Shown one piece after another: positions 15,813 through 19,815 of a stretch of DNA of 64,000 bases. Numbering within the stretch: the stretch's first letter is position 1; each line of letters begins with the position of its first letter. Position numbers and translations under genes: made by a program. The notes under the pieces were generated by a model that was not told the origin of the DNA, did not search any database, and saw only the letters and a list, made by a program, of their open reading frames with translations. This DNA comes from Candidatus Hodarchaeota archaeon. Its GTDB lineage: Archaea > Asgardarchaeota > Lokiarchaeia > Sigyniarchaeales > SOKP01. The stretch covers positions 32,001-96,000 of the forward strand of contig JBHLKM010000016.1 of assembly GCA_048886685.1 (NCBI GenBank). Direction: 5' to 3'.

Positions 15813-16964
15813 ATGACTTCGATTTGGGATATTAAGGCTGATGTTGTTCAAAAAGGAGATAGATTAAGAGATGTCTCTCCTTTACATGATAAAACTATTG
15901 TGGATGAAATAGGTTTTACCCACTATATATTCAGTAAAACTTTATTTAATAATCCATGGTATAAAATACCTGATAATGACTTAGAATTGTTTAAAAACTT
16001 TTTAGATGGGGGATCACGAACATATCCTTCTGATGGGAGTATCCCATGTGATATAATAGCGGGAGAGGCAAGAAAAATACTTAATAGAATTGTAGATATT
16101 TCTAATGAACCTAATAATGTATTCTATAATGATGCGTGTGAAACACTTAAGGAAGGTAAATTTAATTTAGTCCGCGGTACTCTTAAATTATATTTAGGTA
16201 AATATACTACTAGAGATTGGAGGAGGAAAAGATTCACGGATGACATTGATTTCTGGGTCTTCAAAGTACACTTATTAGACCATGTTTTAAGAGAAATGGG
16301 TTGGGTTAAAAATAAAGAAACTGGAGAATTTGAAAAAAGTGTAGATTGGGTTAATCCAGATACGGGAGAAACCAGACATGAAGCTCTTTGTGCTGCAAAT
16401 AATCTAAATCAATTACTTGATTTCGGTGCTGGAAGTTATTTAGAAGGAACCAAGTTAAAAGAGATCTTTAATAAGAAGTTGAAAAGAGGTCATGATGTTG
16501 ATCTAAGTGATATAATAAATGTGGCTTTGTACAATGATGAATCAATTGGGAGAAATAAAGATGAATGGAATGATGTTTGGGAATCATTTGAAGCCGCTAC
16601 TAATACTAGAAATTCTAGAATTACTTCAAATATAATCAGTTTATGTCGTTATTCAATAGGTATTGCGGATCATTTAGAAAGGGTTAGTAGTGCTATAGCT
16701 AAATATCATGATAAAATTTTAGATAAAAATGAATATCCTGATGAAATATTAAAAAGAATCTGTAGAACATCAATCCATTGGATAGATTATCTCAAAAGTA
16801 ATGGTCCAGATGCGACCAGAAATATGTTACATGAATTCTTACTTGAACAAAAAGATGAAAAGGTTAGTCATGTGAAAAATTTAAGGTCATTTGTCGAAAA
16901 AATCCTTAGATTACTTAATTCCAAATATGAATATCTCAAAATTATATTTGAAATTGAGAATTAA
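15813..16964 (+). CDS. Hypothetical protein with a pol-beta-superfamily nucleotidyltransferase-like motif
   Basis: LVRGTLKLYL...RFTDDIDF resembles the hG[GS]...TxDxD signature. Confidence 0.55.
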   Translation: MTSIWDIKADVVQKGDRLRDVSPLHDKTIVDEIGFTHYIFSKTLFNNPWYKIPDNDLELFKNFLDGGSRTYPSDGSIPCDIIAGEARKILNRIVDISNEPNNVFYNDACETLKEGKFNLVRGTLKLYLGKYTTRDWRRKRFTDDIDFWVFKVHLLDHVLREMGWVKNKETGEFEKSVDWVNPDTGETRHEALCAANNLNQLLDFGAGSYLEGTKLKEIFNKKLKRGHDVDLSDIINVALYNDESIGRNKDEWNDVWESFEAATNTRNSRITSNIISLCRYSIGIADHLERVSSAIAKYHDKILDKNEYPDEILKRICRTSIHWIDYLKSNGPDATRNMLHEFLLEQKDEKVSHVKNLRSFVEKILRLLNSKYEYLKIIFEIEN

Positions 16965-18591: not shown

Positions 18592-19801
18592 CTATTTTTG
18601 CTTTGAAAGGTATCTAATTTTTACGAGTAAATCTCGAAGTTCCATTTTATCATTGTCAGATGTTATGTATTTCTTTTTTACTCCTTCTGAAAGCGGGATT
18701 GTTTCAATTTTATTTCCTTGGAGAGATACCATATTCCCAAATTTACCTTCTAAAACAAGTTTCATTGCTGCTAATCCAAACCTTAATCCTAAAATCCTAT
18801 CAAATGAATTAGGTGGTCCGGCACGCATGGTGTGACCAAGAACTACACTTCGACATTCGAAATCTACTCCATTTTTCTCAAATTCTTGTTTTAAATCGTC
18901 TCTTAAGTTTAATTCTTCAACAATTATTTGGGACATATTCAATTTTACTAATAATGGATTACCAAATGTATCCTTAGGTAATTTATCAATTGTTTCTTTA
19001 GATATGGTTTTAAAATCTCGGTTAAGAGATTCTAAATTCGGATAGGCTCCCTCTGATGTAGCAATTATATGATATTTATAGCCAGCATTAACTCTTTTTT
19101 TCAAAACATCAATAACATCTTTTTCTAAGTCAAATGGCGTTTCTGGGATTAATATTATATCTGCTCCAGCAGATATTCCGCTATACATTGTTAAAAAACC
19201 TGCATCTCTGCCCATTACTTCTACAACAAATACTCTTTGATGCGATCGAGCCGTGGTTGTAAGATTATCCATCGCGTTAGAGGCTAGTTGTGTCGAACTC
19301 CAGAAGCCAAACGTATAATGTGTTCCCTGCAGGTCATTATCAATAGTTTTTGGCACTCCTACTACTTTAGCATCAGCGAATCTATACAAATTATCAGCCA
19401 CTCCAAGAGTATCGTGTTCAGTTTAAAACAGAAGTTATTCTAAAACTCCACCGATAGCAATTAGAGCATCTATTCCTAATTCTTCAAACTTTTTGGTTAA
19501 TTCTTTAGCTTTTTCCTCTTTTGCACTTACTCCCTTAAATGGATTCGTCCTACTTGTATATAGGATAGTCCCCCCCACAGTATGTAGGTCATCATGTTCT
19601 GCTATATTAAGTGGAATTGTTTGGTTTTCCACAAATCCTTTCCATCCCTTAAGGATGCCAACACATTCAATCCCAGTATCATAAGCTTTAAGCATGATTC
19701 CATAAAGTACGGAATTTAAACCGGGACAGTGTACGACAGTTAAGGAAACCTTTAGACATGGCTCCGCCGCCCGTGAGAATTCCAACTTTTTTAATTGCTA
19801 T
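18592..19801 (-). CDS. pfp: PfkA-family phosphofructokinase, predicted PPi-dependent. Three exons (19762-19801, 19446-19730, 18592-19415) give 382 aa after removal of two BHB-type introns
   Basis: Joined exons (40+285+824=1149 nt) read (M)AIKKVGILTGGGDCPGLN...ALIAIGGDDTLGVA...PKTIDND...EVMGR...LGHTMRAG with no internal stop. SD GAAGGTGA lies 6 nt before an ATA start. Confidence 0.9.
19416..19445 (-). other. Putative mRNA intron 2 of pfk (30 nt, BHB-type, contains in-frame TAA)
   Basis: GGT GGA G^TTTTAGAATAACTTCTGTTTTAAACTGAAC^AC GAT. Exon stem UAUCG/CGAUA, bulges AG^U and AC^A, 9-bp intron stem. Confidence 0.85.
19731..19761 (-). other. Putative mRNA intron 1 of pfk (31 nt, BHB-type, frameshifting)
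   Basis: GGC GGA G^CCATGTCTAAAGGTTTCCTTAACTGTCGTAC^AC TGT. Central helix GCGG/UCGU, bulges AG^C and AC^A. Confidence 0.8.
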
Positions 19802-19807
19802 TTATAA

Positions 19808-19815
19808 TCACCTTC
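19808..19815 (-). promoter_or_regulatory. Shine-Dalgarno site of pfk
   Basis: GAAGGTGA, 6 nt upstream of the ATA at 19801. Confidence 0.7.

What the first reader, a model, noticed from the sequence alone, without database searches (positions are those of the whole stretch)
19722..19773. pfk intron 1: relaxed BHB with an alternative pairing register
Seen in sequence: central helix GCGG/UCGU, bulges AG^C and AC^A, exon stem GGGC-G/C-(U)-GUCC, and an internal AAGG-UUU-CCUU hairpin. The exon has repeated GGC codons, so a second register (ACGG/CUGU plus GCGGCGG/CUGUCGU) is possible. It would move the 5' cut 3 nt upstream and give an in-frame product lacking one Gly (TGGDCPG). Inference: this may allow alternative 5' splice-site choice or a conformational switch. 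This fold is less clean than that of intron 2.
Basis: partly seen in the sequence, partly recalled or inferred. Interest (0 to 1): 0.7.

Follow-up and report, generated by a model that had tools for sequence, protein, structure and literature searches.

The report
tRNA-type intron in Asgard phosphofructokinase gene
The only phosphofructokinase gene of this Loki-type Asgard archaeon is broken by a 31-base insert shaped like a tRNA intron, so its messenger RNA very probably has to be spliced; the proposed second, alternative cut site is not supported.

Summary
The insert is real: 31 nt (19761-19731, minus strand), splitting the Asp codon of the GGGD motif in the single full-length pfk gene of a Promethearchaeota (Loki) genome. 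Unspliced, translation stops after 37 codons; removing it and intron 2 gives 382 aa. An insert sits at this exact site in 14 of 75 relatives sampled without bias. In 47 distinct alleles (three sequence clusters) it folds as a bulge-helix-bulge (BHB), with two-sided changes in the central helix. Interrupted genes stay under purifying selection (dN/dS 0.074). The genome has a two-subunit EndA with the broad-specificity loop, and RtcB. A motif-free census found 8 more such inserts in 0.89 Mb. An EndA-spliced mRNA intron of the cbf5 kind is likely (0.88); no spliced RNA was seen. This scan already reported the class in other Loki genomes; the papers I could search show it inside a coding sequence only for cbf5.

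The parts
19808..19812 (-). Shine-Dalgarno-like GGTGA upstream of pfk
   Evidence: same spacing in relatives
19762..19801 (-). pfk exon 1 (13 codons plus the first base of the Asp codon); apparent start codon ATA at 19801-19799
   Evidence: relatives have ATG/GTG/TTG/ATA/ATT/ATC at the same position
19731..19761 (-). intron 1, 31 nt, frameshifting, phase 1 in the Asp codon of GGGD
   Evidence: gap against intron-less congeners; 14 of 75 unbiased relatives carry an insert here
19764..19767 (-). central BHB helix, exon strand GCGG
   Evidence: 99.3% of cells paired in 34 alleles; two-sided changes in L054, L055, L185
19733..19736 (-). central BHB helix, intron strand UCGU
19761..19763 (-). 5' bulge AG^C; predicted cut between 19762 and 19761
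   Evidence: frame restoration fixes the junction; BHB geometry (PMC6379350)
19730..19732 (-). 3' bulge AC^A; predicted cut between 19731 and 19730
19737..19760 (-). irregular intron-internal stem with the AAGG/CCUU hairpin
   Evidence: 93.4% paired, 3 pairs with two-sided changes
19768..19773 (-). exon-exon stem, 5' arm (pairs with 19729-19722)
   Evidence: 99.4% paired; matches the codon bias of intron-bearing alleles
19722..19729 (-). exon-exon stem, 3' arm
19446..19730 (-). pfk exon 2
19416..19445 (-). intron 2, 30 nt, two in-frame stops, phase 1 in the first Asp codon of GGDD
   Evidence: 12 of 75 unbiased relatives
18592..19415 (-). pfk exon 3, intact to the stop codon

Best explanation
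A BHB-type mRNA intron removed at one fixed junction. Shown here: the insert, its fixed position, the conserved BHB geometry, purifying selection on the interrupted gene, and an intact two-subunit EndA plus RtcB in the genome. Inferred: the pre-mRNA folds into exon stem / 4-bp helix / two 3-nt bulges; EndA cuts after the second base of each bulge (G^C and C^A); RtcB joins the exons, rebuilding the Asp codon of GGGD; with intron 2 also removed, a 382-aa PfkA-family enzyme is made (GGDD and PKTIDND motifs point to the pyrophosphate-dependent type, from my own knowledge of the family). The slipped 7-bp fold is a by-product of the GGC-GGC codon repeat and can at most lower splicing efficiency. The intron is gained and lost among species, at least partly as a short DNA patch with its flanking codons. 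It is most likely a tolerated insertion that persists because it sits in an essential motif and is spliced out, rather than a regulatory device.
For: Junction fixed at G^AC in every allele, with 30, 31 or 32-nt inserts of three sequence clusters. Removal restores 378-390 codons without stops in every full-length locus. dN/dS 0.074 in frameshifted alleles against 0.062 in intron-less ones. Only full pfk copy in the genome. Primary structure 96.5% paired, 0 of 500 shuffles as high, slid controls 30-55% (kin are not independent, so this is not a P value). Helix GCGG/YCGY changes to GUGG/CCAY in L054, L055, L185. Intron-bearing alleles keep the exon codons the fold needs: ACG 12/14 vs 12/61, helix GGC 13/14 vs 9/61, GGA 14/14 vs 36/61, GAC 13/14 vs 12/61. 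EndA alpha is closest to Aeropyrum pernix (3P1Z, E 5e-34) with the Tyr/His/Lys triad and the loop Lys aligned; a second subunit lacks the His; RtcB is intact. Eight more 30-37-nt disruptive inserts in 893 kb restore the homologue's protein on removal; 6 pass a strict BHB test that no neutral in-frame indel passes.
Against: No spliced transcript was seen. This allele's BHB is not the predicted minimum-energy fold (about 0.1% of the ensemble), so cleavage would need the enzyme to capture a minor conformer. The apparent start codon is ATA. Flank codon bias can also arise from co-transfer of flanks with the intron, not only from selection for pairing.
Confidence: 0.88

Rival explanations
1. One reading: two usable registers give alternative 5' splice sites (31 vs 34 nt) with a biological role.
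For: The GGC repeat lets the same intron strand pair 3 nt upstream; the 4-bp alternative helix can form in 42 of 45 alleles; the 34-nt product is in frame; this EndA type cuts relaxed motifs.
Against: Open-bulge alternative is 6.1 kcal/mol worse here and worse in 47 of 47 alleles; closing pair in 1 of 45; its exon stem only 78.7% paired, with the A-U pair broken in 29 of 34; L055 and L096 break it; no homologue has TGGD, so the product is probably inactive (inference).
Confidence: 0.04
2. The slipped 7-bp fold is a selected off-state that tunes how much pfk mRNA is spliced, with a single junction. This can hold together with the best explanation.
For: In this allele the slipped fold (-10.9) beats the BHB (-9.5); the 7-bp helix is 99.6% paired in this intron cluster.
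Against: Those columns are nearly invariant and are already explained by the primary fold and the Gly codons; the BHB is more stable than the slipped fold in 29 of 34 alleles of the cluster; 0 of 13 alleles of the other clusters can form it; about 80% of relatives have no intron 1 at all.
Confidence: 0.12
3. The gene is a pseudogene broken by an insertion that is never removed.
For: ATA start codon; weak predicted fold; no RNA evidence in hand.
Against: No further lesion in any full-length carrier; dN/dS 0.074 at dS about 1.2; single copy; non-ATG starts recur at the same position in many relatives.
Confidence: 0.04
4. The insert stays in the mRNA and is passed by translational bypass or frameshifting, or is removed by some enzyme other than EndA.
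For: A hairpin follows a GGA codon, loosely like phage T4 gene 60 bypassing (own knowledge); EndA action was not shown directly.
Against: The Asp codon is split and no contiguous GAC/GAT is available in this allele; a frameshift would leave about 10 extra residues in the phosphate-binding loop; 30-, 31- and 32-nt inserts at one site need different shifts but share one BHB geometry. Too short for group I/II introns; no GT-AG ends.
Confidence: 0.04

Closest known systems
cbf5 pre-mRNA intron of Desulfurococcales and Sulfolobales (Watanabe 2002; Yoshinari 2006; Yokobori 2009, PMC2738675)
   Same: Short BHB or relaxed-BHB intron inside a coding sequence; placed between the first and second base of a key Asp codon; patchy gain and loss; hetero-oligomeric EndA.
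   Different: Another phylum (Promethearchaeota); a central metabolic gene with two introns; one site occupied by three intron sequence clusters; present in only about 19% of relatives; one of many such introns per genome; splicing is shown for cbf5 but not here.
Non-canonical tRNA introns of archaea, including Asgard (PMC11291895; bioRxiv 10.64898/2026.10.13.758758)
   Same: Same size class and BHB geometry; repeated gains; two-paralogue EndA common in Asgard genomes. This genome's tRNAs carry similar short introns.
   Different: Sits in an mRNA. Neither paper reports mRNA introns in the passages found. No copy of this intron's sequence was found elsewhere in the genome, tRNAs included (7 mismatches allowed).
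Haloferax HVO_1309 5' UTR BHB intron (Schwarz 2020, PMC7714728)
   Same: mRNA substrate of EndA.
   Different: In a leader, not a reading frame. That paper names cbf5 as the only other mRNA case.
XBP1/HAC1 non-conventional mRNA intron of eukaryotes (own knowledge, not tested here)
   Same: Short frameshifting mRNA intron joined by a tRNA ligase (RtcB in animals).
   Different: Cut by IRE1 at two stem-loops, regulated by stress; no BHB, no EndA.

Membership tests
EndA-spliced BHB mRNA intron (cbf5 kind) | Insert interrupts a reading frame that is restored by exact removal | tested here: met
EndA-spliced BHB mRNA intron (cbf5 kind) | 4-bp central helix flanked by two 3-nt bulges, junctions after the second bulge base | tested here: met
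   4/4 pairs in 44 of 45 alleles; two-sided changes; two G.U pairs here, so a weak helix
EndA-spliced BHB mRNA intron (cbf5 kind) | Outer exon stem and inner intron stem adjoining the bulges (at least one for relaxed forms) | tested here: met
   outer closing pair 45/45, inner 42/45; both stems carry 1-nt bulges
EndA-spliced BHB mRNA intron (cbf5 kind) | Host encodes a broad-specificity EndA and an RNA ligase | tested here: met
   two EndA subunits, alpha with triad and loop Lys; RtcB; by sequence only
EndA-spliced BHB mRNA intron (cbf5 kind) | Interrupted gene is functional | tested here: met
   dN/dS 0.074; single copy; indirect
EndA-spliced BHB mRNA intron (cbf5 kind) | Spliced mRNA exists and EndA makes the cuts | not testable with these tools
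   no RNA run was listed; no enzyme assay possible
Alternatively spliced BHB intron (two 5' sites) | Second register forms a 3-nt bulge 4 bp from the 3' bulge and is conserved | tested here: not met
Group I / group II / spliceosomal intron | Ribozyme core, or GT-AG ends | tested here: not met
   31 nt, begins CC and ends AC

The most novel reading that the evidence does not exclude
One family of Loki archaea runs routine, genome-wide mRNA splicing with the tRNA machinery (roughly 30 or more introns in this genome by extrapolation), with introns repeatedly colonising the same catalytic codons and moving between species as short DNA patches; in this allele a competing slipped fold may also gate how much phosphofructokinase is made.
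Probability: 0.75. Interest if true: 0.85.

Novelty: new variant of a known kind. Interest (0 to 1): 0.7.

Why it matters
Published work I could search shows EndA splicing inside an archaeal coding sequence for cbf5 only. A polymorphic intron in a core sugar-metabolism gene, with many others in the same genome, would make mRNA splicing an everyday process in a lineage close to the origin of eukaryotes. It offers sister alleles with and without the intron for studying intron gain and loss. It also means that gene callers split or truncate such genes in Loki genomes (pfk fragments of about 265 and 113 aa are in the databases), which can distort metabolic reconstructions. The 0.75 in the novel case refers to genome-wide splicing; the gating clause alone is about 0.12.

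Tried and rejected
Spliced product in public protein collections: no exact match to the in-silico spliced product of any carrier among 120 best hits; five intron-less contigs inspected had intron-less-type flanks and look like ordinary intron-less genes. A genome-wide motif plus frame-rescue scan without homologues was weak: no enrichment at first, 18 against 7-10 in displaced controls after a coding filter, and it missed pfk intron 1 itself, so I relied on the homologue census. That census cannot see frameshifting inserts in the relatives, nor introns shared with them. RNAalifold did not return the BHB, and single-sequence folding is at chance level. Within the 31-nt cluster alone, pair counts cannot separate the two registers (96.5% vs 92.1%); the other clusters do. 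Assembly artefact rejected: shared by many independent assemblies. tRNA donor for the intron not found. My first spliced translation was out of frame by a coordinate slip; corrected. Paper searches found no report of Asgard mRNA introns; the library lacks most subscription journals.

Full report
What is there. The window lies in a 4.4-Mb genome whose closest pfk relatives are Promethearchaeota (Lokiarchaeia) assemblies such as Loki_b32. On the minus strand a PfkA-family gene runs from 19801 to 18592 in three pieces. Alignment with congeners shows two clean inserts: 31 nt at 19761-19731 and 30 nt at 19445-19416, both between the first and second base of an Asp codon after Gly-Gly. Unspliced, the frame stops after 37 codons; without intron 1 only, after 111; without both, it gives 382 residues. 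The closest solved structure of an intron-less orthologue is a 424-aa phosphofructokinase (PDB 44XA/9CIR, E 1e-145) with both motifs intact. This is the only full pfk copy in the genome.

The observation. Taken alone they are no better than shuffled sequence (z +0.3 to +0.4), so relatives were needed.

Relatives. In a set found with exon 3 only, and so blind to intron 1, 14 of 75 genomes carry an insert at this site and 12 of 75 carry intron 2; the two vary separately. Genome and metagenome searches gave 47 distinct intron-1 alleles of 30, 31 or 32 nt in three sequence clusters, from at least four genera of one family; none was seen in the neighbouring family's pfk genes that were aligned. The junction is always G^AC. 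Every full-length carrier yields an open frame of 378-390 codons once the inserts are removed. Pairwise dN/dS is 0.074 for alleles with a frameshifting insert and 0.062 for intron-less ones. On the pfk tree the intron needs 13 changes of state, at least 7 forced by well-supported branches; this does not tell gain from loss.

The primary BHB. On 34 alleles of the 31-nt cluster the structure is 96.5% paired, against 30-55% for slid partners, with three inner-stem pairs changed on both sides. Across clusters the central helix changes on both sides: GCGG with YCGY becomes GUGG with CCAY in L054, L055 and L185. Carriers keep the G+C-rich synonymous codons that the fold uses, in a genome of about 30% G+C. 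Kin are not independent and flanks can travel with the intron, so these counts support the fold without giving a probability.

The alternative register. Moving the 5' cut 3 nt upstream needs the bases at 19766-19764 to be an open bulge. Forced open, this allele folds at -3.4 kcal/mol against -9.5 for the primary BHB, and the primary wins in 47 of 47 alleles. The pair that would close the alternative bulge exists in 1 of 45 alleles against 42 of 45. L055 and L096 have a mismatch in the alternative helix but not in the primary one. The alternative exon stem would favour TGT for Cys; carriers mostly use TGC, which breaks that pair in 29 of 34 and strengthens the primary stem. The product would read TGGD; 118 homologues read TGGGD, one TSGGD, none TGGD. 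The 7-bp slipped helix does form on paper (-10.9 here), but it pairs the would-be bulge and puts seven pairs next to the 3' bulge, where EndA needs four (PMC6379350). It is possible in 33 of 34 alleles of this cluster and 0 of 13 others. It may slow splicing; it does not offer a second site.

The machinery. The genome has two EndA genes. One aligns best with the Aeropyrum pernix alpha subunit, with the catalytic Tyr, His and Lys and the lysine of the loop that confers broad specificity; the other lacks the His and reads as the structural subunit. RtcB is intact. Several tRNA genes carry short introns.

Not an isolated case. I aligned genes sampled from two congeners to this genome without using any RNA motif. 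In 893 kb, eight disruptive inserts of 30-37 nt restore the homologue's protein on removal: thioredoxin, a GH38 mannosidase-like gene, cdhA, uL11, dnaG and three others (gene names from their motifs, my reading). Six pass a strict BHB test, the other two are near misses, and no neutral in-frame indel passes. All eight lie in the first 80 codons of the aligned frame. Extrapolation gives roughly 30 or more per genome; this is an estimate and a lower bound.

How it moves. L106 (both introns) and L273/L274 (neither) differ by 4.4% overall, but 10 and 8 differences fall in the two 60-nt windows holding the intron sites, against 1.9 elsewhere (Poisson 3e-5 and 7e-4). That fits exchange of short DNA patches carrying the intron or its empty site with flanking codons. 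L059 lacks intron 1 yet keeps the carrier-type 5' flank exactly. An orphan 240-nt pfk fragment with intron 2, 95% identical, sits on contig C5. How an intron first arrives is not resolved here.

Comparison and verdict. It works like the cbf5 intron, which also splits an Asp codon after its first base (PMC2738675), and it meets every defining feature I could test; splicing itself was not testable. A 2020 paper names cbf5 as the only coding-sequence case (PMC7714728), and a 2026 preprint on Asgard tRNA introns does not mention mRNAs. Earlier agents of this scan reported the same class in other Loki genomes; those notes are leads, not support. Verdict: real intron, probably spliced at one junction (0.88); alternative splice site unlikely (0.04); interest 0.7, carried by the intron system and not by the alternative register.

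Noticed in passing
window 19801-19799 (-): pfk appears to start with ATA. Among carriers with the same leader type the codon at this position is ATA 11, ATG 7, ATT 5, GTG 2, TTG 1, ATC 1. In the unbiased set non-ATG starts are 4/14 in carriers and 6/61 in intron-less genes (P 0.08).
   Followed up: partly
window 19445-19416 (-): Intron 2 has a strong inner stem but a weak central helix; a better 4-bp helix also exists 3 nt upstream there, which would delete a Gly from GGDD. Not tested across alleles.
   Followed up: partly
G000:C5:244006-244245 (+): Orphan 240-nt fragment of pfk exon 2 with intron 2, 95% identical, with no flanking pfk sequence.
   Followed up: partly
G000 C1:288862(-), C4:207112(-), C20:41204(-), C2:163725(-), C2:6637(-), C18:88177(+), C1:204868(+), C1:28179(-): Eight further BHB-like inserts confirmed against intron-less homologues.
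   Followed up: partly
G000 C2:178230(-), C6:98861(+), C17:95399(-): Strong BHB candidates from the motif scan only: purA-like, a CxxC Fe-S protein, and a P-loop of a CobA/BtuR-like gene; not checked against homologues.
   Followed up: no
L193 and L054/L055/L062 clusters: Unrelated intron sequences at the identical pfk site suggest repeated insertion or replacement at a preferred target.
   Followed up: partly
G000:C1:221073-221165: A tRNA-Sec gene is called in this genome.
   Followed up: no
window 15813-16964 (+): 383-aa ORF with a nucleotidyltransferase-like D-x-D motif next to an MFS transporter; not examined.
   Followed up: no
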